A stretch of 64,000 nucleotides of DNA from a virus. Its lineage: Duplodnaviria; Heunggongvirae; Uroviricota; Caudoviricetes. The stretch is from IMG/VR virus record IMGVR_UViG_3300013121_000049, positions 80,253 to 144,252 of that record. One strand, given 5' to 3'. Positions 3,479 through 44,032 of the stretch are shown here, one piece after another. The notes under the pieces are model-generated. The model was not told the DNA's origin, did not search any database, and worked only from the letters and a program-made list of their open reading frames with translations. The translations under genes were made by a program, and so were the position numbers. Positions within the stretch are counted from its first letter, which is position 1; every line of letters begins with the position of its first letter.

Positions 3479-5440
3479 ATTCTGCTGCGCGAAGTGTCGG
3501 CGTCCCGACTGATAGCCGCATTGAGCGCGTTCTTCAGCTTCAATGCACTGTCCCCCAGCGAACGATACGTCCCACGCAAGGCGGATATCAGGGTCGGCAG
3601 GTTATCGGGTGCGCTCTCGTCGGCCCCCAGCCGGAGGAACAGGAGAGTGCGGCCAATCCGGTCAAGGCAACGATCGATGGCCGGCAAGTAGGTAGAGATA
3701 GTGCTATACATCGACGGGTCGAGCAAGATCTGCGAAATGATGGTCGACTCCACAATATCAGGGTAACCCGTGTCGATCGCTCCCTGAACAGCGTTGGTAT
3801 CGAACAGCGTCGGCTCTTCCTGGGGCGGCATCTGGCCATACTCGGGGATTTCCCCGACCGGCGTGGCGCCCATGTCGCTGGCCTTCTTCGCCATGAAAAC
3901 CGTGATGCTGCCTTTTTCCTGGGCCGACTTGATGAAGGTCAGGCACGCCTGCTTGCCAATGCCCTCCCCGATGATCAGCTTCTTGACGAGGTCGATTTCC
4001 GAGATCGGGCTTCCATTGAACGAGAACATGCCGTGACCATGGCTGCGGATCTCCACGGGGTCCTGGAGCATGCCGATGGTTCGCAACTCCAGCTTGCGCT
4101 GGGCGGAGTTGATGTTGCGCTCGACCGAGTCCGCGATGCAGTTGGGCAGAACCACGACGCTGCGGACGGGATTGGTGATGATCTCGCCGCTGTCGACGAA
4201 GTAGTCCCCTTTGAAGCCGGTGGACGCCGTCAGCTTGAGTCGGCCGCAGCGGTCCGCCATCCCCCGGTAGAATCCGTAATCCCAGGGCTCCTCCAGGTCC
4301 ATGACTACGGCGAAGTCCGTGTGGGTGACGGTGCACGCCGTGAACGGGCCCAACGCGCCCTTGCCGGTGAGGATGACGAAGGTGTCGCCGGTGACCACGG
4401 AGTTCAGGTCTCGGACGCGGCCTTGGGTGTAGAGCTCCTGAGCCACGTCAGAGAGCAGGACAGGCGTGTTGACCAGGACGGTCATGCCGTCGTCTGTCCA
4501 GCCGCCATACTCGGAGATGAACAGGTTGCCGCGCGCCTCCTTCCCGGCAACGCCCTCCGTGGTGAAGAAGCCGGCGTGCGGGCGCAGCTTGTGGTCAGGC
4601 ATGTCGATGCCTTCGCGACGCGGGGCGCGCTTCAACACCATGCCGTTGACGTGACTGCCATCGGCAAGCACCGCCTTGTAAGCCATGCCCTGGATGGCGC
4701 CCTGCAGCTGCAGGTAGCCCTCGGCGCCAGTCACTTGCTCCACGGCTTGGCGCGGCTCGATGACGTCGCCGCGAATGTGGTAACCGCAGTCCACGATGTC
4801 CTTGATGACCAGCGGATCCAGGTTGCTCAAGCCGGTGGTGCCGGTGATGACTTCGACCGAGGGCTTCGATACCGTGGTCGTCAGGGGCTTGGATTGCGGA
4901 GACGACGGGATGACCCGGGACTCCGCGATGGACTGCAGGTCGACATACCGGGAGATCTGCTTGGCCATGTCCTTGTTGTCGAGCATGGTGTTGTACAGGC
5001 GATCCCACAGATGAGGCGGTAACGTGGCCAGGAATTCCTCCAGCTGACCGCTGGCGTAGCTGTACTTGCCGGTGCGCGGCGGCACGATCAGGTTGTAGAC
5101 GGACGGGTTGATGTTGACGTACGACGGGATGCGCGTCGGCTTACCCATCCGCGTGCCTTGGCTACGGATGAGCTGCGTCACCGTGTCCGTGGTCAACGGG
5201 AGGAACATGTCCGTCGACATGTCGTAGAGGGAATCCAGCGGATAGACGATCTCGCCACGAGCAATCACCGGCACCAGGTAGAACCCCGGGGGGAGCTGGA
5301 GCAGGATGACGCCCATGGACACATTGGAGTCCTCTGGGAGCTTTGACGACAGATCCTGGAAGCGGATGATGTAGTTGGCCAGCTCGGGGGAGGCCTGGCT
5401 CAGGGACTGGATCGCTTCATTCGGGAAATCTTGCATCATG
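3475..5440 (-). CDS. hypothetical protein (about 654 aa) immediately downstream of the RNA polymerase beta-prime C-terminal gene
   Basis: ORF 3475..5472. Start assigned to the Met at 5440 (rc of 5438-5440), 4 nt after the stop of the upstream gene. The alternative start at 5472 would overlap by 29 nt. Confidence 0.6.
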
Positions 5441-5443
5441 ATG

Positions 5444-7267
5444 TCAGTACCTGCCGTGTTCGCCTTCACCAAAGGTTTTGCCGAAGATATACGGAGCTAT
5501 GGGATCCGTGGAATGCAGCGGCGATTCCTGAGATTGGGATGCCGCCTCAATGATACTTGATTTTAGGTTAGAAGACGCCAACCGTGAGATCCAGTTGGGG
5601 TCCAGCAGTTTTGACTGCTTGACGCCGGTAGCCATCGGCTCCACGGACAAGCCCGTCGTGGATATCGGCACCTCGTGAATGCCGCGCTGATTGAGTTCGC
5701 GCACATGCTGGTGGTCGAGCAGGGTGCCCGGCATCAGGCTGGATACCCGCCGGGCCAGGACCTTGCCGGCGGCCCGTTCGATCGGTACAACCTGACTGCC
5801 CTTGTCGAACTCGTGCGCCACCTTGCCGACTTCCACGATGTCTCCCGGCAAGAAGTCCGTGTCCCCGGGATTCTTGATCTTGACATACTTGGCGACGTTG
5901 CGGGCGATGACGTCGAAGTGCCGGGGGTCCAGGTCGTTGCCGTAGACTTCTCGCAACTTCTTGGAGAAGTACTCGCGTCCCGCCCCCAGTCCGCGCAGCT
6001 CGACCAACTCCTTGGGATTCGGAGTCCCTTCGGAAAGCTCCTGGCCCGCGTAAACGTGGTCACCTTCCTTCACTTTCAGGCCTTGGTCTTGGGGAACGAA
6101 GTGAGGGATGCCGTTGACGTGGACCTGGAAGTCACCCAGAGCGGTCTTCTCAATCTTGTTAACCTTGCCGGCCGCCGTCGCCAGCGTCGCCGCATCCTGA
6201 AAGTTCTCAGGGATGGTCAGCAGGTTCTTGGATGCCTCGAACATGTTCTGCGTGGCCTTGATCTTGGACCCTGCCGTGCCGCCCTGGTGCTTGGATGAGA
6301 GCACCGCCTGGATCATGCCCTCCGAGATCGACTCTGCCGCCACGACCCCGACATTCTCGCCGATCTCCGGGTAATTGCCCCGGGAGTCCCGGCCGTAACA
6401 CATCTGGCAGATACCTTCGTGGGCCTCGCAGGTCGTCGGCGTGCGGATCGTGATGGTCTTGGTCCCTGAGGAGAGCTTTTCCTTGTAATAGGCGTCGTCC
6501 ACCATGTGATCCGTGCCGGCTTCTACGTGGCCGACGACGCGCCGTCGGTCGTGGACGTCGTAAGGCGTACCGTTCTTGGTCCCGCAATTATGAATAGTGA
6601 CGACCTCGTGGAACACCGAGGGGACCAGCTTCTTGAAAAGAGCGCCGGGCTCGGACGCCGCCATCTGGGCCTTGATCGTCGCCGCTCGGCCGCCGTAGGC
6701 CATGGCCAGGTGTTCGGCCGGCGTCAGACCCTCTGCAAAGGAGTGGCGAATTGGCAGCGGGATAGGCTTGCCCTCGATGTCTACGGACATCATCGGGGAG
6801 AACGTGCCCTGCCCCAGTTGCATGGGGTTGCCGCGCGCGCCGGTCAGCGCCATGAGGCCCGCCGTGGACCCCTTGCTTACCATGTACTTCAAGTTGAGGT
6901 CTTGCGACTTCTTGACGTATTGCCCGGCCACCTCGTTCAACGCCTGAGTTTTCTGGGCGCGCGTCAACTTGGAGTTGTCGTTGATGGCGTTGATCTTGTT
7001 CACGTACTCATCCAGGAAGACGTTGCGCTCCTGGCTGTCGTTCTCGTAGTCGGTGAGCGGCGTGGAAAACCCGTTGACGGTTGCCGTGTGAAAAAACAGG
7101 TTGGAGAGATTCTGGATGGTCTCATGGGCCTGGCTGCCGCCGTGCTTGATGACCAGCGACATGAGGTTCGTCACCCCATTCTTGTCGAGGACCATGTTGG
7201 GGTCATAGTGCTTCTGCACCTCGGGGGGCAGCATGCTCTTGATCAGTAGGGAGCCCGCGGTCGCCAT
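5444..7267 (-). CDS. DNA-directed RNA polymerase beta-prime subunit, C-terminal portion (region F with the bridge helix, and region G with the trigger loop), encoded as a separate polypeptide
   Basis: TGARGNPMQLGQG corresponds to E. coli SGARGSAAQIRQLAGMRG. CEAHEGICQMCYGRDSRGNYPEIGENVGVVAAESISEGMIQAVLSSKHQGG corresponds to the beta-prime block TCxxHGVCxxCYGRDLARG...[24 protein letters not shown]. Confidence 0.9.
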   Translation of the reverse strand: MATAGSLLIKSMLPPEVQKHYDPNMVLDKNGVTNLMSLVIKHGGSQAHETIQNLSNLFFHTATVNGFSTPLTDYENDSQERNVFLDEYVNKINAINDNSKLTRAQKTQALNEVAGQYVKKSQDLNLKYMVSKGSTAGLMALTGARGNPMQLGQGTFSPMMSVDIEGKPIPLPIRHSFAEGLTPAEHLAMAYGGRAATIKAQMAASEPGALFKKLVPSVFHEVVTIHNCGTKNGTPYDVHDRRRVVGHVEAGTDHMVDDAYYKEKLSSGTKTITIRTPTTCEAHEGICQMCYGRDSRGNYPEIGENVGVVAAESISEGMIQAVLSSKHQGGTAGSKIKATQNMFEASKNLLTIPENFQDAATLATAAGKVNKIEKTALGDFQVHVNGIPHFVPQDQGLKVKEGDHVYAGQELSEGTPNPKELVELRGLGAGREYFSKKLREVYGNDLDPRHFDVIARNVAKYVKIKNPGDTDFLPGDIVEVGKVAHEFDKGSQVVPIERAAGKVLARRVSSLMPGTLLDHQHVRELNQRGIHEVPISTTGLSVEPMATGVKQSKLLDPNWISRLASSNLKSSIIEAASQSQESPLHSTDPIAPYIFGKTFGEGEHGRY

Positions 7268-26135: not shown

Positions 26136-29100
26136 TTACCCGAGAGGTCGGACCCCATTGCTGACATCCGCCGGCGCGCTCATGCCCGCCTGGCTCTGGT
26201 ACTCGAAGGTCGTCTTCGAAAGGAAGTCCTCGACGCCCTGCGGGTAGAACTCGCTGGGCGGCAGGATGTACGGCGCGCTCTTCGGGTCGCCCTCGGCGTG
26301 GTTGTGGCTGACCGACTCGCCCGAAGCCTGCTTGTGGTGACTGCCGATGACGACCTCCTGGTTCTCGTGGACCTTGCCGGCCTTGAGCGCCGCCACGGCT
26401 TCCGCCTCTGTGGCGAAGTGCACGGTCTTCTGCGTCTCGTCCTTGCTGGTCAGATGTACGCTGCCCAGGATGGCCTCGTGGCCGGGCGCAAACATCGAGT
26501 AGCCGTAGCCCTTGCGCACGTCGTTGATGTGGTGCATTGGCAGCAGCTTGGCCTTGGCCTCGGCGATGGCTTCCGGCGTCATCGGCAAGTGCATGGTCAT
26601 GGCGTCGCCGTCGAAGTCCGCGCCGAACGCCGGCAAGTGCAGCGGATTCAGGCCGATCGTGTTTTCCTTGGTCGGCACCGGATAGATGGCCAGCTCGTTA
26701 GTCCGCAGCAGGGTCGGCGCGCGGTTCAGCAGCAGCGGGATGTCCTTGATGCAGCGGTTGAACGCATAGGTCGCCAGGTTGTCGCGCTTGGTGTAGGAAT
26801 CCAACGCCTCGGGCATCGACATGCCCTGCTTCGCCAGGAAACGCAGGATGTGGTACTTGTAGAGCACCCACAGCTGGTCCACCGGGATGCGGGCCTCGTT
26901 GAAGCCGACATCCGGGGCAGCATAGATCGTCGCCCGTCCCGAGAAGTTCTGCTTGCGCGCCAGCAACCGGTCATGAAACACCCCGGTCTTCGGCCCGCCT
27001 TCCCCGGCGATCTGCTTGATGAACCCCTTCAGCGGCTTCTTGGCGCCGATGTTGTCGCCCAAACCCATGATGGCCGCTGCGCCCTGATAGAGGTCCTTGC
27101 GCATGGGCACCAGGGCATCCGGCGTCGAATCCGCGAGGTTCTTCTTCAGGGTCTTGCTGACCAAGATGTGATCGTTGTACAGGTTGTTGACGTCCGCGAA
27201 GTGCAGACTGCCGCCGCCCTGATCCATGAAGGGGCGCATGACCGGGGGCAGCACGGGCATGTGCTTGATGACGTAGGCGTCCGCCGGGTTGGAGAATCCG
27301 CTCTTCTGCAGGCCGCGCAGGTACTTGGCGCGCTTCACCTCGTCATCTCGCGCCGATACCGACTTCAGGTTGACGGCGTTGTGCACGGAGGTCTTCAGCG
27401 CCTCGTCGACATCGATGTTGGCCAGCAACTCCTTGAACGCCTCGCCGCCCACCTTGATCTTGTCGTCGTTGTAGGCTTCGTCGGCGTCCGCCTTCTTGGT
27501 CATGCCGACACCGGTCTTGCCGATGTGAATATCCCGGACCTTGGACTGGTTCAGCGTGTCGTAGAGGCCGTAGTGTCCCGGCGCAATCTTCTGCACGCCG
27601 TAAGAGCCGTCAGTCAGCCGATCGAACTCGTCCGCGCTCAGCTTGAGCACCGACTTCACGGGCATCTCGAAGGTAGGGTTCACGATGGGCTCGGCCAACG
27701 TGTAGTGCGACCACTTGGTGCCCTCCGGGCCGCCGGTAATGATGGGGTCGAACATGCCGCCTTTCTCAGGCTGCAGGGTGCGCGCCAACAGGCGGCCCTC
27801 GTTGACCTCGCCGCCGCTCATCTCCAGGATCTTGTGGTCGGTCAGCGGGGCCAGCGTCACTTTGTCGTTGGCCGTGCGCACATCGATGCCGGCGCCCTTC
27901 AGGTAGCCCAAGAACTTGTCGGTGGCAAAGGTCGTCTTCGGCTTGGGAAGCGGCTCGCCATTCTGGAAGGCCTTCCAGAACTCCTCGTTCTTCTCGGCCT
28001 TGATGGTCGACATCTCCTGCAGGTTCTTGCGGGCGTTGGACCCCAGCAAGGCCAGGAATTCCATGTAGGCCGTCCGCTTGGATCCCTCTTCCCCGCCCTT
28101 GGACGGCTGGCGCCAGGAGTCATAGCCACCCTCGACGTTGCGGGCGCTGTAATTGGAGTCCGTGGTCTTGTAGGTCTTGACCACGTAATGCGGGCCGCCG
28201 AAGACCTTGGGCAACACCTTGCCGGAGACCGGATCCACCAGCACGTCATGCTGCTTGAGCCCGTGCGCCTTCAGCTCGTCCTTGATCTTGCGGACAGAGT
28301 CCCCGGCGTTCTCATAGTTGTGGACCACATACTGCTTGCCCGTCTTCTGGGCAATGCGACCGGCCGCCGTCTCCAGGACCGATCCCAGGTTGATCCGGGA
28401 GGTGACCGAAGCCGGGTTGAAGATGGCGTCGACGGGTTTCCCCGTCTCCTGGTTATAGGGCATCTGCTCGTCCGGGACGATCTTGGAGACCACGCCCTTG
28501 TTGCCATGAAAGCCGGTCAGCTTGTCGCCTACCTCCAGGTGCTTCACCGAGCGCGTCAGGATGCGAACCTCCTTGCCATCGGTGTGGGCCTCGATGACCT
28601 CGCCGGGCTCCTCGTGCGTCCAGTACTCCACGACTGCCAGGTACGGGGAAACCAGCTGCTTGCTGATGCGGTGGTACATCAGGTCGGTCGTGCTCATCGT
28701 GCGCGGCTTGAGCACCGCCCAGATGGGATCGCCGTAGCGCAGGGTCTGGCCTTTCTGGATGAAGCCGCGACTGTCCAGCTTGGCCAGCTGGTCGGACTTC
28801 AGCAGGGACGGGAACGTCTTGCGGAACAGCGCCCGATCGGTCTTCATGTCCGTCGTCAGGGACAGGTCGTACTTGTAGGCGTGGTGGCTGGACAGCTTCT
28901 CGGCCGCGCCTTGGCTGACCACGATGCCGTCTTCATGGTTGAAGCCGTGGTACGGCATGAAAGCCACGTTCAGGTTGCGGCCCAGCGCCAGTTCCCCGCC
29001 GCGCGTGTAGTTGCTGTCGTACAGGGACTGCCCCTTCTCGACGCGATCGCCCACCTTGACCAGCGGGGCCTCATCATCGCGGAACCCCTTCTGGTTGTAT

Positions 29101-30905
29101 GGCAGGTTGACCACGCGGGCGACCTTGGCCGTCTTCCCGTCATCCCCGCGGATCTCCATCCCGGTGTCGGTGATCTTGCTCACCGTGCCGCTCACCGGGC
29201 TGATCGTGGTCATGATCTTCCCATAGACCTTGGTGAACGGGACCTCCCTGCCGTTCCGGTCACGGGTGGCCGTGGTTACCAGCGGCGCCTCGCGGTCCTT
29301 CAGGGAGAGCGCCTGGACGATGGCCTTGCCCGCCATGGTCAGACGACCCGGATGGTCGGCGTTCATGAACGGCACCAGGTTGGTGGTGACCGTGTACATG
29401 TCCGTCGGCTTCTCCACCCAGTACTGGACCTTGGACTCCGGGACGTTCTTCAGGACGCCGTGATCCTGGGCCTGCACCAAGCCGTTCTTCTTGCCGATCG
29501 TGAACCCGATGCAAGCGTTCATGATCTGGGACGCCGACAGGTAGACCGAGCGCCCCTTGGTGTCCTTGAACCGGCCGTAAAGGTTGCCCTTGGCGTCGCG
29601 CGCCGAGTTGATGGCAAAGCGCAAGTCGACGCCCACCGTGTCGGCTTCCGGCGTCCGGCTGGGATCCAGGATGGTCAGGTGGGACGGGTCAATGTTGCGC
29701 GTCCGGACGTTGTTGGCTTTCTGCAGATCGATGCCGCCTTCCCCCTCGCCCAGAACGGTGACCTTGGCCACGTTCTCCAGGGACTCGATGGGGTTGGTTT
29801 CCGACGGCACGATCGACAGCGTGGACTTGGTCAGGAAGTTCTGCATGACCTTGTTGTAGGGCTTGGAGACCACGACCTTGCGGATCTTCGGCGTCTCCTT
29901 GGACAAGACGGCGCGGTCCAGCCCCCACTTGATCTTGCGGCTGGCGTCGCTGACGTTCTCGTGTTCGCGGCCCTGTTCAAACCGCCGGGCAATCAGGTCC
30001 GGGTAGCTCACGACCCGCTTGAACTGCAGGGAGTCGCGGTTGTCTTCCTCGCGCTCGCCCTTGTGGATGGCGATGATGTTGGCGGCGATACGCAGCAGGG
30101 CATCGCCATCCAGATGCCCAAAGGACTTGCCCAGGGTGACCTTGGTGCCGTCTTCATCCAGGGTACGCTTCTCCAGCCCGACCTTGATCCACTTGATCTT
30201 CTCGGCTTGCGCGGGGTCCGGGTTGGCCTTGCGCTGCTCGTACGGAGCCACCTTGCGATACAGGCGGTTGGCGATGCCGTCGCTATCCCCGGACTCCATC
30301 AGATCCTTGTCCCAGATGGCCGTGGGAATGTAGGCGGACGCTTTCTGCCGGTCGATGCCGAAGACGTGGCTGAGCACCCAGACCAGCGGCACGTTGATGT
30401 CGCCGCTGCTCAGGATCAACGTCTGCTTGCGCGGGTCCAGGGACACTTCCAGGGAGCCGCCGCCGGAGTTGATCTGGGCCATGACAGCGCCGTTGCTGCG
30501 CCGACGATGGTAGACGCCCTCCTTGAGCTGCAGGAGGTGGGAGATGACGTAGTTGTTGCCCTTGTAGACGACCGTGTGCTTGTCCGTCAGGTGAAAGCAG
30601 TCGGCCAGGGCGTAGTTCTTCTCTTCGTCGACCGTCTTCCCCGTCTGCTTGTCGATGATGCGCAGGGTGCCGCGCACCGGGAACGTCAGGGACTTCGATT
30701 CCAGGATCGCCTTCTTTTCGTCTTCCTTGTCGAACGTCTTGCGATCGATCGTGATGTCCGAGACCTCGATACGGTAGCGGGCGTTCTCGATGGGGAACTG
30801 CTTGCGCACGCCATCCACGATGGCCTGGCAAACATCGTTCAGCGTGCTGTCCGGAGACGAGATCATGTGCTTCAGCGGCTTGCCGTCGAGACTGGTCAGG
30901 CTCAT
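26136..30905 (-). CDS. DNA-directed RNA polymerase: a complete beta-like subunit fused to the N-terminal half of beta-prime (through the NADFDGD catalytic region), 1589 aa
   Basis: Beta-subunit blocks: [12 protein letters not shown] (compare GYNFEDSILVSE), [25 protein letters not shown] (compare [25 protein letters not shown]), and LGEGEGGID...TPEADTVGV. Beta-prime blocks: [16 protein letters not shown] and [25 protein letters not shown]. The start is at the ATG that forms an ATGA overlap with the upstream stop; a GTG at 30914 is an alternative. Confidence 0.92.
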   Translation of the reverse strand: [1589 protein letters not shown]

Positions 30906-31330
30906 AGTTGCCACCCCTCACCCGGTTCCTCGTCTTTCTTCGGCGTCTCGAAGACCACGCCCTCGTAGGGCGCATCCTTCGGCTCCAGATACGTCAGGAC
31001 GACGATCATCTCGCCCTCCTTGTTGAAGGATTCCTTGCGGTCCACCAGGTAGATCCGCGTGGTCTCCGAGTGGATACAGGCGTCCAGCAGGCTCTCCAGC
31101 ATCAGTTCCTGCTCGGCAAACCCGGACAGCAGGAACCGCTTGACCCGGAGCTTGTAGTCGGCCAGTTTGAACCCGGCCCGGCCGGGAGCCTTGTCCTTTA
31201 CCGCGGCTTCCTCGTCAAGGTTGCGCAGGGTGACCCCCGGCATGGCTGCCGAATAGTCCTGCAGACCGACTCCCGCGTTCTCCGGAAGGTTGGGGGCATT
31301 GACCCCCGGCGTCTTGTCACGCGGCGGCAT
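30902..31330 (-). CDS. hypothetical acidic protein (142 aa), translationally coupled to the RNA polymerase gene
   Basis: ORF 30902..31381, trimmed to the Met after the GGAGGA ribosome-binding site. Its stop overlaps the RNA polymerase start. Confidence 0.5.
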   Translation of the reverse strand: MPPRDKTPGVNAPNLPENAGVGLQDYSAAMPGVTLRNLDEEAAVKDKAPGRAGFKLADYKLRVKRFLLSGFAEQELMLESLLDACIHSETTRIYLVDRKESFNKEGEMIVVLTYLEPKDAPYEGVVFETPKKDEEPGEGWQL

Positions 31331-39103: not shown

Positions 39104-40675
39104 ATGTGGACCCGTCAGCAAATCACCGAGAACTTCCCGCTGGAAGGCCGGGCGCCGCGCTTCTCACAGGTCGTCACCGTGGAGGCCATCCTCGACAGCT
39201 TCATGAACCGGGGTAAGCGTTTCGTCATCCTGCAGTCCCCCGTGGGTTCCGGGAAATCGGCCATCGCCATGTCGCTGGCCAAGTACTTCGGCAGCAGCCA
39301 CGTCCTTACGCCGCGCAAGCCCCTGCAGGACCAGTACTTCAGCGACTTCCAGCACATGGCGGTCACCATGAAGGGCCGGTCCTCCTACCCTTGCGTCTAC
39401 CTGGACAACAGCGAGTACGAGCTGATCCGCAAGTTCATCTTGCGCGGGGAGTCGCCACCGGCGTTCATCACCGAGCGCAACTGCGCCCAGGGTCGCTGCA
39501 GCAACGGCAACAAGGAAGTCTACGAGGCCTGCTCCCGGCGCCAGCAATGCCCTTACTCCCTGGCCATGGGCGTTGCCCAGCAGAGCAACCACATCCTCCA
39601 CAACTTTCACTCGTTCATCTTTCAGGCCTATATGGGCGACAAGTTCGACAAGCGCCCCCTGATGGTCATTGACGAAGCCCACCGCCTGCGAAACACGCTG
39701 CCGGACTTCCTTAGCCGCCAGGTTTTCGCCCGCGGCATCCGGGGAGACTCCAAGACGCCGGCGGACGGCGCTCCGATTGACGAATGGTGCGACTGGTTCA
39801 GCCAGGAGGAATTCGTCCACAAGTACAGCACCAAGGTCGACCGGGAAGACTACCTGGACCGTATCGCCTCGCTGCGCATGGGCATGCGCGGCCGGGAATA
39901 CGTCATCGAGCGCAAGGTGCTGGACGCAGGCACGCGATTCACTTTCCGCCCGCTGTACCTGGGGCAGATTGCCGAGGAGTTTCTCTTCCAGTTCGCCGAC
40001 AAGATCCTGCTGATGTCCGGCACGATCTACAGCAAGGACGCCTTCTGCGACCGGCTGGGCATTGACCCAGAGGAAGCCGACTTCCTCGACGTCGACTCCT
40101 CCTTCCCGGTGAAGATCCGCCCGGTCATCGTCAAGCCCGACTACCTGGTGCCGACGTCCCACAAGGACAAAGACATGCGGAGGATCCGCGATGTCGTGAA
40201 GACGATCCTCGACCGGGCTCCGGACAAGAAGGGCCTGATTCACGTCCCCAGCTACGAGTTCGGCCGCGAGCTGATCTCGGCCATGCCCGACGAGCCGCGC
40301 CTGCTTGGCCACGCCTCGGACAACACGCAGGAAACGCTCGACAAGTTCTTCCAGAGCGATCAGGCGCTGGTGCTGGTTTCCCCGGTTTGCACGGAAGGCG
40401 TGGACTTCAAGGACGACCGCGCGCGCTTCCAGATCGTCTGCCGGGTGCCCTATCCGAATGTCGGCGATCCCTGGGTGAAGGCGCACATGGAGCGTAGCCG
40501 CAACTGGTTCAACCTGGAGGCACTGACCGTGTTCGGCCAGATGCTGGGCCGCGTCAATCGCCATGACGACGACTACGGGGTTACCGTGCTCATCGACGAA
40601 CGCTTCCCCGACTTCATCCGGCGCAACAAGCACTTGATCCCGGAATGGCAATACAAGGCGTTCATTTTCCGCTGA
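39104..40675 (+). CDS. XPD/Rad3/DinG-family Fe-S helicase
   Basis: Walker A SPVGSGKS. DEAH box VIDEAHRL. A four-Cys Fe-S cluster (C...C..C...C between CVYLD and QQCPY). The start is trimmed to the ATG at 39104. Confidence 0.85.
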   Translation: MWTRQQITENFPLEGRAPRFSQVVTVEAILDSFMNRGKRFVILQSPVGSGKSAIAMSLAKYFGSSHVLTPRKPLQDQYFSDFQHMAVTMKGRSSYPCVYLDNSEYELIRKFILRGESPPAFITERNCAQGRCSNGNKEVYEACSRRQQCPYSLAMGVAQQSNHILHNFHSFIFQAYMGDKFDKRPLMVIDEAHRLRNTLPDFLSRQVFARGIRGDSKTPADGAPIDEWCDWFSQEEFVHKYSTKVDREDYLDRIASLRMGMRGREYVIERKVLDAGTRFTFRPLYLGQIAEEFLFQFADKILLMSGTIYSKDAFCDRLGIDPEEADFLDVDSSFPVKIRPVIVKPDYLVPTSHKDKDMRRIRDVVKTILDRAPDKKGLIHVPSYEFGRELISAMPDEPRLLGHASDNTQETLDKFFQSDQALVLVSPVCTEGVDFKDDRARFQIVCRVPYPNVGDPWVKAHMERSRNWFNLEALTVFGQMLGRVNRHDDDYGVTVLIDERFPDFIRRNKHLIPEWQYKAFIFR

Positions 40676-40681
40676 CCGAAT

Positions 40682-40690
40682 TGGTATAAG
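40682..40690 (+). promoter_or_regulatory. promoter-like motif TGGTATAAG
   Basis: Lies 43 nt upstream of the ATG at 40733. A short GGGGAC-acttc-GTCCC hairpin follows. Confidence 0.45.
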
Positions 40691-40732
40691 GACAGTACCG
40701 GGGACACTTCGTCCCTTTCAAAGGAGAGTGCC

Positions 40733-41182
40733 ATGAGCATTACTGTTACCGCAAGCTTTGTGGAGACCCCGATCCTCCACGGCCTGCAGACCCTGCTAGC
40801 AGTGAATCACAGCCGCCGTCAGGCTTCTGTAGAGATCGGAGAATTCTTGACCGCAGCCTTCCCGGCAATCGCCGGGGCGGCTGCAAAAGAGTTCGACGTG
40901 GAAGAGTGCCAGCTCTTCCACGACGCAGCCCGAGCCGTCGGCCCGGACGTGGCGCAAGCCATGTGCGTCAAGCTGGACGCCATGCCCCCGAGCATGGTGA
41001 TACCGCATGCGGTTGCTTTCCTCCAGCGCGAGCTGGCGGCAAGCGACTGTGATGAGACCCTGCTCCTGAAAGGGGCGAGCCTCATTGATCGGGGCCTCCG
41101 TGCCAAGGCAGGGATCCTGCCCTGCGCGGAAGGCGCGGTGCACGGCATCCGCGCCGTGCGCCGCCTGCTGGAGGCCGCATGA
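40733..41182 (+). CDS. hypothetical protein (149 aa)
   Basis: ORF with an AAAGGAGAG ribosome-binding site. Confidence 0.55.
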   Translation: MSITVTASFVETPILHGLQTLLAVNHSRRQASVEIGEFLTAAFPAIAGAAAKEFDVEECQLFHDAARAVGPDVAQAMCVKLDAMPPSMVIPHAVAFLQRELAASDCDETLLLKGASLIDRGLRAKAGILPCAEGAVHGIRAVRRLLEAA

Positions 41183-41235
41183 ATTGGCCGGATGAAGACG
41201 ACGACGAGGCCCTAGACCTCGATGTCGTCTTCTGA
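41179..41235 (+). CDS. small acidic peptide (18 aa) MNWPDEDDDEALDLDVVF
   Basis: ATGA overlap with the upstream gene. A terminator follows. A paralogue lies at 43070..43147; it differs by synonymous changes (AAT/AAC, CCG/CCC, CTA/TTA), which indicates selection at the protein level. Confidence 0.35.
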   Translation: MNWPDEDDDEALDLDVVF

Positions 41236-41247
41236 CTCCCTCAATTC

Positions 41248-41271
41248 AGCCCGCCATGTGCGGGCTTTTTT
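41248..41271 (+). terminator. intrinsic terminator (AGCCCGC-catgt-GCGGGCT followed by TTTTT)
   Basis: A 7 bp GC stem followed by a T-tract. Confidence 0.7.
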
Positions 41272-41282
41272 AGCCCGAACAC

Positions 41283-41291
41283 GGGTATAAG
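41283..41291 (+). promoter_or_regulatory. promoter-like motif GGGTATAAG
   Basis: Lies directly after the terminator. It heads a 545 nt non-coding stretch before the ATG at 41834. Confidence 0.45.
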
Positions 41292-41812
41292 AAGCTAGAC
41301 ACCGAACTTTACCCCAGGCGGGGTACGGCGTGTCATGGCAAGGCCGGGCTCGGCACGGTCCGGCGGGGCTTGCAGAGGTTTGGCGAGGTGCGGCGTGGCA
41401 AGGACTTCTCACTGGGCTCGGCGAGTTCAGTGAGAAGTCCTTGAGGAAGGGTTTGGCTTGATCTGGTCAGGTTGGGCTGGGCGGGGTGTTGCTTGGAAAG
41501 GCAAGCCTGGGCTCGGCGAGGCAAGGCTAGGAGAGGCAAGGCGAGCCGGGGAATGGCAAAGCTTGGCAAGGCGTGGCAAGGCCCGGCATGGCGGGGCTCG
41601 GATAGGCACGGCATGGCTGGGTTAGGTACGGATTGGCATGGCGAGGGTTTCTCGCTGGGCTCGACGAGTTCAGCGAGAAACCCTTGGTGACTAGCACTAA
41701 TGATTATCTTCAATGGCGAGGTTCGGTCAGGTTTGGACAGGACGGGCTGGGTAAGGTAAGGCATGGCAAGGGCTTCGCCCGGAGCGGGAAACCACTCCGG
41801 GTTTTTCTTTTT
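41292..41812 (+). ncRNA. candidate structured non-coding RNA or long leader: GGCAAGGC/GGGCTCGGC-type short repeats, two covarying hairpins, and a 3' intrinsic terminator
   Basis: Hairpin 1, 41403-41439: GACTTCTCACTG-ggctcggcgagtt-CAGTGAGAAGTC. Hairpin 2, 41645-41683: GGGTTTCTCGCTG-ggctcgacgagtt-CAGCGAGAAACCC. The loops are near-identical and the stems differ but stay complementary. The terminator CCCGGAG...CTCCGGG plus TTTTTCTTTTT lies at 41778-41812. Confidence 0.4.
41778..41812 (+). terminator. intrinsic terminator or attenuator immediately upstream of the ribosome-binding site for gene 41834
   Basis: A 7 bp stem (CCCGGAG / CTCCGGG) followed by a T-tract. Confidence 0.6.
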
Positions 41813-41833
41813 CACACACAAAAGGAGGTCAGC

Positions 41834-42454
41834 ATGGCTGGCAAGAAGAAAGACGTGGTGGGCGATCCCACCAATGGCGGTGAAGAAAGCATTCTGGCTT
41901 CTGCGCCCTACACAGTTCGAGTTCAAATTACTGGAAGTGCGAAGTTTCTGTTTCACAGATGGAACTGCGAAAGCATTGAAGCCAAAGCAGCTGCGGCCAA
42001 GAACAGCGCCGCTAAGAGGACTGACGATACCGCGTCTTACGTTTACCGTGACGACGACGGCAATCTGTGCATCCCCGGCGAGTATCTGCGGCAGGCGATC
42101 ATTGCCGCCGCCAAGTACCGTCAGGATCCGCGCAGTCCGCGCAAGTCCATGATGGACATCACGAAGGCCGGCATCGTCAGCCTGACCGACTTGGCCAGCT
42201 TGGGTGTTCAGGATTGGGACTTCCTGGACAAGCGCCGGGTGGTCGTGCAACGCGCGGGCATCAACAGGACTCGGCCCGCCATGAACGCCGGGTGGTCAGC
42301 CGAGTTCGACTTGATGGTCGGACTTCCCGAATATTTCACTCCTGCACTGGTCAATGATCTGCTGGTAGACGCTGGCCGCCTGATCGGCATCGGCGACTTC
42401 CGGCCGACGTTTGGCCGATTCAACGTAACCCATTTTGAGGTGCTGACGAAATGA
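41834..42454 (+). CDS. hypothetical protein (206 aa)
   Basis: ORF 41633..42454, trimmed to the ATG at 41834 after an AAAGGAGG ribosome-binding site. The upstream part of the listed ORF is the repeat region. Confidence 0.6.
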   Translation: MAGKKKDVVGDPTNGGEESILASAPYTVRVQITGSAKFLFHRWNCESIEAKAAAAKNSAAKRTDDTASYVYRDDDGNLCIPGEYLRQAIIAAAKYRQDPRSPRKSMMDITKAGIVSLTDLASLGVQDWDFLDKRRVVVQRAGINRTRPAMNAGWSAEFDLMVGLPEYFTPALVNDLLVDAGRLIGIGDFRPTFGRFNVTHFEVLTK

Positions 42455-43086
42455 CCGCTCCCGCTTACTTCGCCCACACTTTGGGCGAATACAAGCTGCC
42501 CGCAGACGCGGCAGCCAAGCTCCACTCCGCCCCACGAGACCTGGGGAAGTTCATGCCGGTAGTCCTGGACTTGTGCGGGGAAGCCGCTGAATGGGCTACC
42601 ACCGCCCTGCTACACGTTCTCTCCGAGCTGCCGGATAAACTGGCAAAAGAGGTCGGCGTGACGGTTTCCATGGACGACCTCAAGACGTTCAACGCCGGCT
42701 TCCTGCTGTCCACCATCGAGCAGGAAATCCCCCGCGTGCAGGACTTCGGAGGAAAGGATGCCCGGGAAATCTCCTTGGACGACCTGGCCAGCGTCCTGCG
42801 GTTCACGGCGCTGCAGTCCAAGACAATGCTCCTGCACGAGGAACTCCTCGGCAAGACCATGCTGGACGACAGCGTCCACCCCGTGAAACGCTTGGCGGCG
42901 ATGACGCAGTTCAAGGAAGTTGGGGAAATGGCGGTCAAAGAATTCCTGAAGACGGTGCGGTGGTGCGACGTTCTGGCAGACCGCGCCAATCGCTCCGGAT
43001 TCGTCCGGGATACTCTGGAAGCTTTGCTGATCGAGAGCCTGGTAATGCCGCCCGGCGAGGAGGACAACCATGCAAGCGCACATTAA
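42451..43086 (+). CDS. hypothetical protein (211 aa)
   Basis: ORF with an ATGA overlap with the previous gene. Confidence 0.6.
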   Translation: MTAPAYFAHTLGEYKLPADAAAKLHSAPRDLGKFMPVVLDLCGEAAEWATTALLHVLSELPDKLAKEVGVTVSMDDLKTFNAGFLLSTIEQEIPRVQDFGGKDAREISLDDLASVLRFTALQSKTMLLHEELLGKTMLDDSVHPVKRLAAMTQFKEVGEMAVKEFLKTVRWCDVLADRANRSGFVRDTLEALLIESLVMPPGEEDNHASAH

Positions 43087-43147
43087 CTGGCCCCCGGAGC
43101 CCGAGGATAACGAGGATGACTCGTTAGACCTCGATGTCGTGGGCTGA
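43070..43147 (+). CDS. small acidic peptide (25 aa) MQAHINWPPEPEDNEDDSLDLDVVG
   Basis: Paralogue of the 41179 peptide. It overlaps the end of gene 42451..43086 in another frame. It is also antisense to the last 24 nt of the sigma factor gene. A terminator follows. Confidence 0.3.
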   Translation: MQAHINWPPEPEDNEDDSLDLDVVG

Positions 43148-44032
43148 CTCAACGACGGCCTCCTCCGGGAGGCCTTTTTTTACATAGAATTGCCGGATCT
43201 TGCGCATGGCCGCAGTCTGCAGACGACGGACCTCGGACACCGTGCACCCCATATCCTGAGACAGCTGACTGATACTCTGCTTGGCCGCGCCGGCCAGCTC
43301 GAACATCGCCGAAATGACGCGCCACTCCCGAGAGGAAAGCATGGCCTGCAGGCGCCCGCACAAGAGGTCGTCATCCATGCTCTGGATGAGGTCATCTGAG
43401 AAGTCGGCCACCGTGAGGGGGGCCAGGGTAATGTCTGATCGCGCAACGGCGTCATCAATGTCGGCAGAGGAGTGGCGAGAGGAGTGTGAAGACAGGATGC
43501 CGCGGAGGATGTCATCGATGTAGACGGTGACGTACAGGGTCTTTCGCAAGTTGGCGATGATCTCCGTACTGGTGGATGGCGCGCACCGCTGCTGAAGCTC
43601 GACATCCGTGATCCTGGGTTCCTTGGCCAGGATGTCGCGTATCTTCACGGCAAGCTGCTGCTGCCACACGGGGAGCTTGACCAGCCTGAGCTTCTGCTGC
43701 GTCCGCCACTGGCACTGGTTTACCCACCACCCGGCGTAGGTCAGGAACTTGTGCCCGCGCTTGTAGTCGAACCGCGACAGGGCGATACACAGACCTTCGT
43801 TCCCCGCCGCCACCAGTTCTTCGAACTCATAGGCACCCAGTTTACGAGCACGCAGCTTGGCCTGCTTGGCGACAAACATGATGCACGACCGGACGATCTT
43901 GTCGCGGGCCGCATCCTTTTTCCAGCGCGGCGCTTCCGGATCCTCCAGTGTGGCGAACAGAGACTGCTCCTCCTCCCGGCTCAAGGGCTTTTGTTTTGAA
44001 ACCAGGGTGAAATAGGAGGATATTGGATCCAC
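43124..44032 (-). CDS. sigma-70 family RNA polymerase sigma factor (302 aa)
   Basis: Region 2: IMFVAKQAKLRARKLGAYEFEELVAAGNEGLCIALSRFDYKRGHKFLTYAGWWVNQCQWRT, which has the FSTYATWWIRQAI-type pattern. Region 4: SSREWRVISAMFELAGAAKQSISQLSQDMGCTVSEVRRLQTAAMRKIR. The start is a GTG with a weak ribosome-binding site, so it is uncertain. Confidence 0.85.
   Translation of the reverse strand: MDPISSYFTLVSKQKPLSREEEQSLFATLEDPEAPRWKKDAARDKIVRSCIMFVAKQAKLRARKLGAYEFEELVAAGNEGLCIALSRFDYKRGHKFLTYAGWWVNQCQWRTQQKLRLVKLPVWQQQLAVKIRDILAKEPRITDVELQQRCAPSTSTEIIANLRKTLYVTVYIDDILRGILSSHSSRHSSADIDDAVARSDITLAPLTVADFSDDLIQSMDDDLLCGRLQAMLSSREWRVISAMFELAGAAKQSISQLSQDMGCTVSEVRRLQTAAMRKIRQFYVKKGLPEEAVVESAHDIEV
43157..43181 (+). 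terminator. intrinsic terminator (GGCCTCC-tccg-GGAGGCC followed by TTTTTTT), located inside the 3' coding region of the convergent sigma gene
   Basis: A 7 bp stem followed by a T7 tract. On the opposite strand the same bases encode ...KKGLPEEAVV of the sigma factor. Confidence 0.65.

What the first reader, a model, noticed from the sequence alone, without database searches (positions are those of the whole stretch)
41292..41812. About 520 nt promoter-to-terminator non-coding region with two covarying hairpins and GGCAAGGC / GGGCTCGGC short repeats
Between the promoter motif at 41283 and an intrinsic terminator at 41778-41812 there is no plausible ORF. The only listed ORFs here are an Arg/Pro-rich antisense artefact and an upstream extension of gene 41834. 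The region has dense copies of (T/A)GGCA(A/T)GGC and GGGCTCGGC (about 15 in total). Two hairpins share a near-identical 13 nt loop (GGCTCG[G/A]CGAGTT). Their 12-13 bp stems differ in sequence but stay perfectly complementary. That covariation points to a conserved RNA structure or a protein-binding palindrome. A terminator placed right before the ribosome-binding site of the next gene fits an attenuator or riboswitch-like leader, or a standalone non-coding RNA.
Basis: seen in the sequence. Interest (0 to 1): 0.8.

Follow-up and report, generated by a model that had tools for sequence, protein, structure and literature searches.

The report
Phage VIPR guide-RNA array
The 520-base "non-coding region with hairpins" is the guide-RNA array of a VIPR system, a CRISPR-like phage weapon first described in 2026 preprints, and one of its guides appears to be aimed at the equivalent gene of rival phages.

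Summary
Window 41317-41774 holds 71 in-phase pentamers GGYNN (G1 97%, G2 93%, Y3 83%, NN near random) in three tracts of 18, 41 and 12 units. Two 21-bp hairpins and a terminator hairpin separate and end the tracts.

This matches VIPR (bioRxiv 10.64898/2026.04.26.720920 and .720927). There, Vipr polymerises on vrRNA and the NN dinucleotides read double-stranded DNA with one base skipped per two read.

It is a new member of a known kind, not a riboswitch or attenuator.

One point may be new. Under the published rule, vrRNA3 matches the conserved FHRWNCE codons of rival vipr genes at 20/22 positions, and the sister phage at 19/22. The phage's own vipr matches at only 15/22. It differs from the sister by Leu, Arg and Ser codon-family switches at exactly the positions the guide reads.

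No targets were found for vrRNA1 or vrRNA2. The neighbouring candidate accessory gene is an orphan.

The parts
41248..41272 (+). Intrinsic-terminator-like hairpin plus T-run that ends the upstream gene (40733-41182). It marks the left border of the module.
41286..41291 (+). TATAAG, a -10-like hexamer and possible start region of the vrRNA transcript. Weak evidence.
   Evidence: Read from the sequence. Identical in the sister phage. Not called by the sigma-70 scan.
41317..41398 (+). vrRNA1 repeat tract. There are about 16 free GGYNN units; units 17-18 (to 41406) run into the tail stem. NN read-out: GG AC GT AT AA CG TC AC CC GG TT GA TT GA GC GT.
   Evidence: Units 1-9 are identical in the sister phage. 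Among units 10-16, five differ at NN and three at the third (Y) position, while GG is kept.
41399..41443 (+). Tail hairpin 1: 21-bp stem with a GGC triloop.
   Evidence: (-36.3 kcal/mol, z -7.2).
41445..41641 (+). vrRNA2 repeat tract. It holds 41 in-phase units in all (to 41649), about 39 of them free, with 5 degenerate units. It may be a staggered multi-guide array.
   Evidence: Length is in the top ~6% of arrays. The sister phage lacks exactly 60 nt, or 12 units.
41642..41686 (+). Tail hairpin 2: 21-bp stem with a GAC triloop. It differs from tail 1 by three compensatory pairs.
   Evidence: found as a 21-bp stem; -37.6 kcal/mol, z -7.9.
41715..41774 (+). vrRNA3 repeat tract: 12 units, all starting with GG. 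NN read-out: GA TC CA TT CA CG TG AA AA AT AA (CT). Predicted anti-vipr guide.
41777..41812 (+). Terminator-like hairpin plus T-run that ends vrRNA3. It keeps fragments of the tail arms (AGCGGGAAACC).
41834..42454 (+). vipr: a 206-aa RAMP (Cas7-like) protein, the predicted vrRNA-binding subunit. The ribosome-binding site AAGGAGG lies upstream.
41942..41973 (+). The site in the phage's own vipr (codons 37-47, KFLFHRWNCES) that is homologous to the vrRNA3 target. It matches the guide at only 15/22 positions because of CTG (L39), AGA (R42), AGC (S47) and K37/F38.
42451..43086 (+). Candidate accessory gene in the vap position. It encodes 211 aa and its start overlaps the vipr stop (ATGA). It is an orphan, predicted all-helical.
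43157..43184 (+). Terminator-like hairpin plus T-run after the candidate vap gene. Probable right border of the module.

Best explanation
The region is the guide-RNA (vrRNA) array of a phage-encoded VIPR system (Viral Interference Programmable Repeat). Gene 41834-42454 is its Vipr protein.

**Shown here**
- Three tracts of GGYNN pentamers lie on the sense strand directly upstream of a stand-alone RAMP-fold gene.
- That gene is homologous to the experimentally studied SUSP1 Vipr and keeps the residues that bind G1, G2 and Y3.
- Arrays of this kind accompany the gene family almost without exception.
- GG is conserved, and NN is rewritten between sister phages.

**Taken from the two VIPR preprints, not tested here**
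- The tracts are transcribed and matured into vrRNAs, each consisting of a repeat tract plus a structured 3' tail.
- One Vipr protomer binds each pentamer and sequesters GGY.
- The exposed NN dinucleotides pair with double-stranded DNA at two of every three bases (the 1-nt skip rule). This forms an R-loop triplex that blocks transcription of competing phages.

**Inferred here**
- The 21-bp hairpins are the tails of vrRNA1 and vrRNA2. As long perfect duplexes they may also be RNase III processing sites.
- vrRNA3 ends in the terminator.
- vrRNA3 is aimed at the codons for the conserved FHRWNCE motif of rival vipr genes, including the allele of the closest known relative.
- The phage's own vipr escapes because Leu39, Arg42 and Ser47 use the other codon family.
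For: **Repeat units.** Across 71 units, G1 is 69/71, G2 is 66/71, Y3 is 59/71, and N4/N5 are near uniform. These are the only such arrays in the 64 kb, and there are none on the minus strand.

**The protein.**
- It matches phrog_4652 and has no Pfam, NCBIfam or PADLOC hit.
- The AF2 model has pLDDT 82.9.
- tblastn hits phage SUSP1 at the annotated vipr position, E 2e-4.
- SUSP1 residues H17, K33, R39, K82, R138, D177 and R179 align to identical residues in the window protein, and W178 aligns to F189.

**Association with arrays.**
- 152 of 157 loci with a homologue carry an array of at least 7 units on the same strand, within 1 kb upstream or 1.5 kb downstream. The loci come from IMG/VR, GTDB genomes and isolate phages.
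- The only DNA-level matches to the region in 50,697 phage records are the equivalent arrays of Cluster F mycobacteriophages. They sit directly upstream of a protein 23% identical to the window's, E 1e-7.

**Sister phage.** Its flanks are 89-93% identical. In array 3 the GG columns are conserved and every NN is rewritten. One indel is exactly 12 units long.

**Literature.**

**Predicted target of vrRNA3.**
- With skip 1, the best match is 20/22 and 53 sites reach at least 18/22. All lie at one site in vipr genes, in frame, with the skipped base at the wobble position.
- Skips of 0, 2 and 3 give maxima of 16, 17 and 16.
- None of 400 unit-order permutations reaches 20.
- The phage's own gene scores 15/22 and the sister's allele 19/22.
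- Leu/Arg/Ser codon-family switches between the sisters are 3 of 3 inside the site and 2 of 24 outside, Fisher p 0.0034.
Against: - No expression data are available. Transcription, processing and loading onto Vipr are assumed from the SUSP1 and P. fulva work.
- Tract 2 has 41 units, far beyond the 9-16 described. It carries 5 degenerate units and relic tail motifs.
- The tails are plain hairpins, not the SUSP1 pseudoknot. No other sampled locus shares them.
- vrRNA3 has a different 3' end from vrRNA1 and vrRNA2.
- No targets were found for vrRNA1 or vrRNA2.
- A terminator sits between the array and vipr, so how vipr itself is transcribed is unclear.
- The gene in the vap position has no detectable relative among the downstream genes of the other VIPR loci compared.
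- The recoding argument rests on one pair of genomes and was formulated after seeing the data.
Confidence: 0.92

Rival explanations
1. Cis-acting leader: the region is an attenuator or riboswitch-like 5' UTR that controls read-through into gene 41834.
For: A terminator-like hairpin (41777-41812) sits about 20 nt before the ribosome-binding site of the gene. An alternative 11-bp pairing exists between 41646-41656 and 41783-41793. It could in principle compete with the terminator.
Against: No Rfam family matches, even at E up to 10. In homologous loci the arrays lie downstream of the gene in 108 of 157 cases, which a leader cannot do. NN positions are rewritten between sister phages while GG is kept. 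That is the opposite of a ligand-binding fold. The VIPR model explains every feature.
Confidence: 0.02
2. DNA-level element: the pentamers and palindromes are binding sites (iterons, an origin or a centromere-like site) for a phage DNA-binding protein.
For: The short repeats are dense. Two near-perfect 45-bp palindromes are present.
Against: The strand asymmetry is strict. G-rich pentamers are on the sense strand of the neighbouring gene in 152 of 157 loci, and only 6 arrays lie on the other strand. A 5-bp period puts successive sites on opposite faces of the helix. The partner protein has an RNA-binding RAMP fold. Published VIPR RNAs co-purify with Vipr.
Confidence: 0.02
3. Decaying or partly inactive VIPR locus: the elements are VIPR-derived, but some no longer work as guides. 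Candidates are the 41-unit tract 2 with degenerate units, or vrRNA3, which lacks the canonical tail.
For: Tract 2 is unusually long, has 5 degenerate units and contains relic tail motifs. The sister phage's vipr carries a 160-nt frameshifting deletion, so this lineage can lose the system. No targets were found for tracts 1 and 2.
Against: The window's vipr is intact with all key residues. GG conservation is 93-97% over 71 units. Long in-phase arrays recur in 25 of 435 arrays of the clade, and the literature describes staggered arrays. vrRNA3 has a highly non-random predicted target.
Confidence: 0.06

Closest known systems
VIPR systems, type II as exemplified by Escherichia phage SUSP1 and the Pseudomonas fulva prophage (bioRxiv 10.64898/2026.04.26.720920; structures in 10.64898/2026.04.26.720927)
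   Same: - A stand-alone ~20-kDa RAMP protein with the same GGY-contacting residues.
- Sense-strand GGYNN tandem repeats with hypervariable NN, each tract followed by a structured 3' element.
- The layout vrRNA x3 - vipr - a second small gene, as in P. fulva.
- Phage-encoded.
- No self-target at 80% or above.
- A predicted target that obeys the 1-nt skip rule, with the skipped base at the wobble position.
- A guide against another VIPR system, a class the authors mention.
   Different: - Only 29% identical to SUSP1 Vipr over 63% of its length.
- The tails are perfect 21-bp hairpins with a triloop, not a pseudoknot.
- One tract has 41 uninterrupted units, against the 9-16 described.
- The third guide ends in an intrinsic terminator.
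- The gene in the vap position is an orphan with no similarity to SUSP1 vap1.
- The host is a ~140-kb phage with its own multisubunit RNA polymerase.
- Type assignment was not possible without the authors' phylogeny.
Class 1 CRISPR-Cas effector backbones (Cas7/Csm3/Cmr4 on crRNA)
   Different: - No CRISPR repeat-spacer array.
- No other CRISPR-associated protein among the immediate flanking genes scanned, and none among the Pfam-annotated genes of the sister phage's syntenic locus.
- The period is 5 nt with 3 bases sequestered, rather than 6 nt with 1 flipped.
- Specificity lies in the dinucleotides of a repeat, not in a contiguous spacer.
- There is no adaptation module.
Protein-sequestering or repeat-reading RNAs (CsrB/RsmZ GGA repeats; the TRAP-binding (G/U)AG repeats of the trp leader)
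   Same: Many short G-rich motifs at regular spacing in a non-coding RNA, each read by one subunit of an oligomeric protein. The TRAP sites also have a period of about 5 nt.
   Different: Those RNAs regulate by titration or attenuation and carry no programmable information between motifs. Here the between-motif dinucleotides are the hypervariable, information-bearing part, and the partner is a RAMP. No Rfam hit.

Membership tests
VIPR system | The Vipr protein is a stand-alone RAMP fold (RRM core, glycine-rich loop, thumb). | tested here: met
VIPR system | Sequence homology to an experimentally characterised Vipr, with the GGY-binding and DNA-clamping residues. | tested here: met
   tblastn hits phiSUSP1 at 28501-28890, E 2e-4. 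SUSP1 H17, K33, R39, K82, R138, D177 and R179 are identical in the window protein, and W178 aligns to F189.
VIPR system | Tandem YNNGG (GGY/NN) repeats of at least 4 units flank vipr on its strand. | tested here: met
   71 units in three tracts directly upstream. The same holds in 152 of 157 homologous loci.
VIPR system | GGY is conserved and NN is hypervariable. | tested here: met
   Within the locus: G1 97%, G2 93%, Y3 83%, N4/N5 near uniform. Against the sister phage: the GG columns of tract 3 are invariant and all NN are changed.
VIPR system | An invariant structured 3' tail follows each repeat tract. | tested here: met
   Tracts 1 and 2 end in near-identical 21-bp hairpins. Tract 3 ends in a terminator hairpin that keeps tail fragments. 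The tail type differs from the SUSP1 pseudoknot. Other clades have other hairpin tails.
VIPR system | vrRNA size: 9-16 repeats, about 100 nt. | tested here: inconclusive
   Tracts have 18, 41 and 12 units. The clade median is 13, IQR 11-18, and tracts of 30 or more units make up 25 of 435. The 41-unit tract may be a 'staggered' multi-guide array. Mature ends are unknown.
VIPR system | A minimal locus without a CRISPR array or other cas genes. | tested here: met
   No tandem array with score of at least 80 anywhere in the window. The neighbours are a DinG-like helicase, an orphan gene and a sigma-70-like gene.
VIPR system | An adjacent vipr-accessory (vap) gene. | tested here: inconclusive
   A 211-aa gene overlaps the vipr stop codon. 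It shows no similarity to SUSP1 vap1 or to the downstream genes of three other loci. It has only one homologue, and its AF2 model has pLDDT 46.5.
VIPR system | Targets obey the 1-nt skip rule (NNx), usually with the skipped base at the codon wobble position, and there is no self-target at 80% or above. | tested here: met
   vrRNA3 with skip 1 gives a maximum of 20/22 and 53 sites of at least 18/22, all in frame. Skips 0, 2 and 3 give at most 17, and 0 of 400 permutations reach 20. The best self-match is 15/20, equal to the null. No targets were found for vrRNA1 or vrRNA2.
VIPR system | vrRNAs are expressed, co-purify with Vipr, and repress transcription of the target. | not testable with these tools
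   Requires small-RNA sequencing, pull-down and reporter assays.
VIPR system | Encoded by a virus or provirus. | tested here: met
   The window encodes a tail sheath, virion proteins, phage-type split RNA polymerase subunits, a primase and a DNA polymerase.
VIPR type II (SUSP1 / P. fulva clade) | Position in the Vipr phylogeny, plus a vap1-type accessory gene. | not tested
The layout vrRNA x3 - vipr - small gene resembles P. fulva, but the vap candidate is unrelated to SUSP1 vap1.
CRISPR-Cas (class 1) | A repeat-spacer array and a multi-gene cas operon. | tested here: not met
   No CRISPR-like tandem array. The protein is a lone RAMP, and no PADLOC or NCBIfam cas model matches it.
Riboswitch / transcription attenuator | A conserved ligand- or factor-sensing fold in a fixed position 5' of the regulated gene. 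| tested here: not met
   No Rfam match. Arrays lie downstream of the gene in 108 of 157 loci. The sequence between the GG anchors is hypervariable.

The most novel reading that the evidence does not exclude
vrRNA3 is an anti-VIPR guide that silences rival vipr genes at the codons for the G1-reading FHRWNCE motif. Because VIPR has no PAM, the phage tells self from non-self purely by synonymous codon-family recoding of its own vipr: Leu CTG for TTG, Arg AGA for CGN, Ser AGC for TCN. These are the only synonymous changes visible to a reader that skips wobble bases.

This would identify the six-fold degenerate codons as the escape and self-immunity route in VIPR conflicts. The describing preprint does not discuss this point.

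Less striking possibilities that also remain open:
- a new tail class processed by RNase III;
- a new orphan accessory protein;
- a functional 41-unit multi-guide tract.
Probability: 0.4. Interest if true: 0.7.

Novelty: new member of a known kind. Interest (0 to 1): 0.45.

Why it matters
VIPR was described only in 2026 preprints, and no profile library tested here carries a functional annotation for it. Pfam, NCBIfam and PADLOC have no model for the protein, and PHROGs lists the family as of unknown function. Loci like this one are therefore still annotated as 'hypothetical protein plus intergenic gap'. One relative, in phage DSL-LC04, is even labelled a helix-turn-helix regulator.

Recognising the locus has several consequences.
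- It gives a function to a conspicuous 520-nt non-coding stretch.
- It extends VIPR to a large lytic-type phage with its own RNA polymerase and to Cluster F mycobacteriophages.
- It adds a new tail architecture and an unusually long array.
- It supplies a concrete, testable case of VIPR-against-VIPR warfare. The guide, the rival target, the immune own allele and a sister phage whose vipr is broken are all in hand.

If the recoding idea holds, it explains how a PAM-less guide system avoids attacking its own gene. It also shows how targets can escape a reader that ignores wobble positions.

Tried and rejected
- **Rfam.** An E-value search over 40500-42500 gave only sub-threshold chance hits and no hammerhead or riboswitch.
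- **Coding reading.** Rejected. A period of 5 is not a multiple of 3, and the ORFs there are artefacts.
- **More copies of the tail hairpin.** Exact scans for CTGGGCTCGNCGAGTTCAG in IMG/VR and for a 27-base version in the metagenome collection both found nothing. Covariation therefore rests on only 4 copies.
- **Natural targets of vrRNA1, vrRNA2 and vrRNA3 in IMG/VR.**
  - I ran five exact 8-unit seed scans. They returned 11-105 hits each, about the chance number.
  - None extended beyond the seed.
  - The full 11-unit vrRNA3 pattern had no exact hit in the metagenome collection.
  - Exact seeds are a blunt tool, so this is a weak negative.
- **Self-targets in the 64-kb window.** None above the null.
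- **Reciprocal targeting of the window by the sister phage's guides.** None; the best was 15/20.
- **A general anti-FHRWNCE guide in other loci.** Absent. The best other score was 10/14 among 3,724 seven-unit windows. One other locus (L033) does carry a guide that matches another part of a rival vipr at 19/20.
- **The candidate vap gene.**
  - No family hit in Pfam, PHROGs, NCBIfam or PADLOC.
  - No similarity to four other downstream genes.
  - One homologue among 5.8 billion clusters.
  - Nothing useful among 1.84 billion representatives.
  - AF2 pLDDT was 46.5, so I ran no fold search.
- **Source contig.** An exact-protein look-up for the source contig found nothing on record.
- **G-quadruplex idea.** I considered a G-quadruplex reading of the (GGNNN)n run. 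I dropped it as unnecessary once the RAMP partner was identified.
Full report
**1. What is in the sequence**

- Cutting the region into pentamers gives three in-phase tracts of GGYNN units:
  - 41317-41406, 18 units;
  - 41445-41649, 41 units;
  - 41715-41774, 12 units.
- Over the 71 units, position 1 is G in 69, position 2 is G in 66, and position 3 is a pyrimidine in 59. Positions 4-5 are close to uniform.
- A Fourier measure of period-5 G content puts all 30 strongest 100-nt windows of the 64 kb inside 41271-41820. The peak is 7.2, the median 0.15 and the 99th percentile 1.08.
- A run detector finds only these three arrays in the window and none on the minus strand.
Seven of ten WGGCAWGGC sites and four of six GGGCTCGRC sites lie here.
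- A period of 5 cannot be a coding frame, so the ORFs listed across the region are artefacts.

**2. The hairpins and borders**

- The two hairpins are 21-bp stems, with two G-U pairs, closed by a triloop. They lie at 41399-41443 and 41642-41686.
- Their free energies are -36.3 and -37.6 kcal/mol, with z-scores of -7.2 and -7.9 against shuffles.
- The two copies differ by three double compensatory changes and one A-U to G-U change. With the two copies from a sister phage, 97.6% of cells pair. Slid controls drop to 33-55%. Four sequences is thin evidence, but it is consistent.
- Terminator-like hairpins with T-runs bound the region at 41248-41272 and 41777-41812.
- The proposed promoter is only a -10-like TATAAG that the sigma-70 scan did not call. 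The phage has its own RNA polymerase genes, so this says little.

**3. The neighbouring gene is the key**

- The only DNA matches to the region among 50,697 phage records are Cluster F mycobacteriophages. They match in an intergenic gap made of the same GGCNN pentamers.
- In those phages the gap lies immediately upstream of a 248-aa hypothetical protein. That protein is homologous to the window's downstream gene 41834-42454: BLASTP E 1e-7, and both fall in phrog_4652.
- The family is large, with more than 5,900 clusters, all unnamed. It is absent from Pfam, NCBIfam and PADLOC.
- I collected 157 loci with a homologue: 80 from IMG/VR, 73 from GTDB genomes, and 4 isolate-phage records.
  - 152 have an array of at least 7 units on the gene's sense strand, within 1 kb upstream or 1.5 kb downstream.
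  - 120 have one upstream, 108 downstream and 76 both.
  - Only 6 arrays lie on the opposite strand.

**4. Identification**

A full-text search found two 2026 preprints that describe exactly this.

- The discovery paper, 10.64898/2026.04.26.720920, reports:
  - a ~20-kDa ancestral RAMP named Vipr;
  - vrRNAs of 9-16 YNNGG repeats with conserved GGY and hypervariable NN, followed by an invariant structured tail;
  - recognition of double-stranded DNA by the NN dinucleotides with one skipped base per unit;
  - transcriptional repression of competing phages and prophages;
  - an accessory vap gene;
  - seven system types.
- The structural paper, 10.64898/2026.04.26.720927, shows one protomer per repeat and names the residues that hold G1, G2 and Y3.
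- The window protein hits phage SUSP1, the founding example, at the annotated vipr position.
- In alignment, SUSP1 H17, K33, R39, K82, R138, D177 and R179 are identical in the window protein (H41, K56, R62, K94, R147, D188, R190). W178 aligns to F189.
- The layout of three vrRNAs, then vipr, then a small gene is that of the P. fulva system.
- The window is viral. It encodes a tail sheath, virion proteins, split RNA polymerase subunits, a primase and a DNA polymerase.
- There is no CRISPR-like array.

I therefore file the locus as a VIPR system. The type is unassigned.

**5. How this instance differs**

- **Tails.** They are plain 21-bp hairpins, not the SUSP1 pseudoknot. Related clades each have their own hairpin tail, and no other sampled sequence shares this one.
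- **Tract 2.** With 41 units it is in the top ~6% for length. The clade median is 13, and 25 of 435 arrays have 30 or more units. It has five degenerate units and a relic of the tail apex at 41507-41525. It may be a 'staggered' multi-guide array of the kind the preprint mentions.
- **Tract 3.** It ends in the terminator, which retains fragments of the tail arms.
- **The vap position.** The gene at 42451-43086 overlaps the vipr stop codon but is an orphan.

**6. A sister phage**

The only homologue of the orphan gene led to a syntenic relative, L416 and its fragments.

- The flanks are 89-93% identical.
- Units 1-9 of tract 1 are identical. Among units 10-16, five differ at NN and three at the third (Y) position, with GG kept.
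- Tract 2 lacks exactly 60 nt, or 12 units.
- Tract 3 keeps every GG column while all NN differ. This is the GG-conserved, NN-hypervariable signature seen directly.
- The sister's vipr carries a 160-nt frameshifting deletion in all five assemblies that cover the deletion junction.

**7. Predicted target**

I applied the published rule, in which the guide NN units are concatenated with one wildcard between them. The database was 0.9 Mb of VIPR-bearing loci.

- vrRNA3 (GA TC CA TT CA CG TG AA AA AT AA) matches the antisense of the codons for xILFHRWNCES in other vipr genes.
  - L040 and L035 score 20/22, with the first ten units perfect.
  - Phage DSL-LC04 and the sister phage score 19/22.
  - 53 of 157 loci score at least 18/22.
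  - Every match is in frame, with the skipped base at the wobble position.
- Controls:
  - Skips of 0, 2 and 3 give maxima of 16, 17 and 16, with no site at 18 or above.
  - None of 400 unit-order permutations reaches 20. Their maximum is 18, and none gives more than 3 sites at 18 or above.
- Among 3,069 ten-unit guide windows from all arrays tested against all vipr genes, this is the top hit. One other locus (L033) has a 19/20 anti-vipr guide.
- The targeted motif contains H41, the residue that reads G1.
- The phage's own vipr matches at only 15/22, or 68%, below the preprint's 80% criterion.

**8. Self-avoidance (inference)**

- Between the window and sister vipr genes, 28 of 33 differences in the first 92 codons are at wobble positions.
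- Four of the five non-wobble differences lie inside the 11-codon target. They are synonymous family switches: L39 CTG/TTG, R42 AGA/CGA and S47 AGC/TCC.
- Over all aligned codons, Leu/Arg/Ser family switches are 3 of 3 inside the site against 2 of 24 outside (Fisher p 0.0034).
- Among homologues, codon 42 is CGN in 130 of 141, so AGA is probably the derived state.
- These are the only synonymous changes a wobble-skipping reader can see.
[quoted passage not shown] It does not discuss this route.
- The argument was made after seeing the data and rests on one genome pair. I give it about 0.4.

**9. What remains unknown**

- Expression, processing and loading are untested.
- Targets of vrRNA1 and vrRNA2 were not found. 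Exact 8-unit seeds in IMG/VR gave chance-level hits without extension. There are no self-targets and no reciprocal hits from the sister's guides.
- How vipr is transcribed past the terminator is unclear.
- The role of the orphan gene is open.

**10. Verdict**

The proposed mechanism, a riboswitch or attenuator, is wrong.

The locus is a new member of a known, very recently described kind. It has a distinct tail, an unusually long array, an orphan neighbour, and a well-supported predicted anti-VIPR guide that makes a specific self versus non-self hypothesis testable.

Noticed in passing
L001 2990-3225 and 3226-3972 (Mycobacterium phage Brocalys NC_031262); likewise Saal and about 20 other Cheoctovirus records: Cluster F mycobacteriophages carry a VIPR module. 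A GGCNN pentamer array fills the gap directly upstream of a Vipr homologue (gp45). The module sits between the antirepressor and excisionase genes. The main text of the VIPR preprint does not mention mycobacteriophages.
   Followed up: partly
L416 4545-5001 (ENA ERZ27283041 k141_1209303), also L418, L419, L421-L423; equivalent to window 42110-42269: The closest relative of this phage has a 160-nt frameshifting deletion inside vipr that removes the thumb region. The deletion is present in all five assemblies that cover the junction. Its arrays and the downstream orphan gene are retained.
   Followed up: partly
L084 3001-3618 (Phage DSL-LC04, OR003939.1): A Vipr homologue, 61.5% identical, is annotated in GenBank as 'helix-turn-helix transcriptional regulator'. 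Its upstream array contains a long stem that encloses further pentamer units.
   Followed up: no
L405 3615-4304 (Acidimicrobiales MAG JBIOZN010000056): A single in-phase array of 138 GGNNN units lies directly downstream of a vipr homologue. It is far longer than anything described for vrRNAs.
   Followed up: no
L343-L415 (genome-contig hits): This Vipr clade, marked by the QDPRSPRKS motif, stays 50-65% identical across many phyla: Proteobacteria, Planctomycetota, Actinomycetota, Bacillota, Cyanobacteria, Patescibacteria and a Bathyarchaeia MAG. That is unusually strong conservation for a phage protein across phyla.
   Followed up: no
window 5444-7267 (-), 26136-30914 (-), 43124-44032 (-): The phage encodes split multisubunit RNA polymerase beta/beta'-like proteins and a sigma-70-family protein. 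The sigma gene converges on the VIPR operon. Promoters here may therefore not be of the host sigma-70 type.
   Followed up: partly
window 41444-41480 and L416 4231-4265 / 4414-4450: About 33 nt after each tail hairpin (GAGGAAGGGTTTGNCTTG..GGTCAGGNTGGGC) is repeated after both hairpins in the sister phage. In the window it follows only the first. After hairpin 2 the window has an AT-rich 28-nt insert (41687-41714) instead. This may be a conserved 5' part of the next vrRNA, or a trace of module duplication.
   Followed up: no
L033 3119-3423 versus L034 vipr: Another VIPR locus carries a guide window that matches a different part of a rival vipr gene at 19/20 positions. This suggests that VIPR-against-VIPR guides recur.
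   Followed up: no
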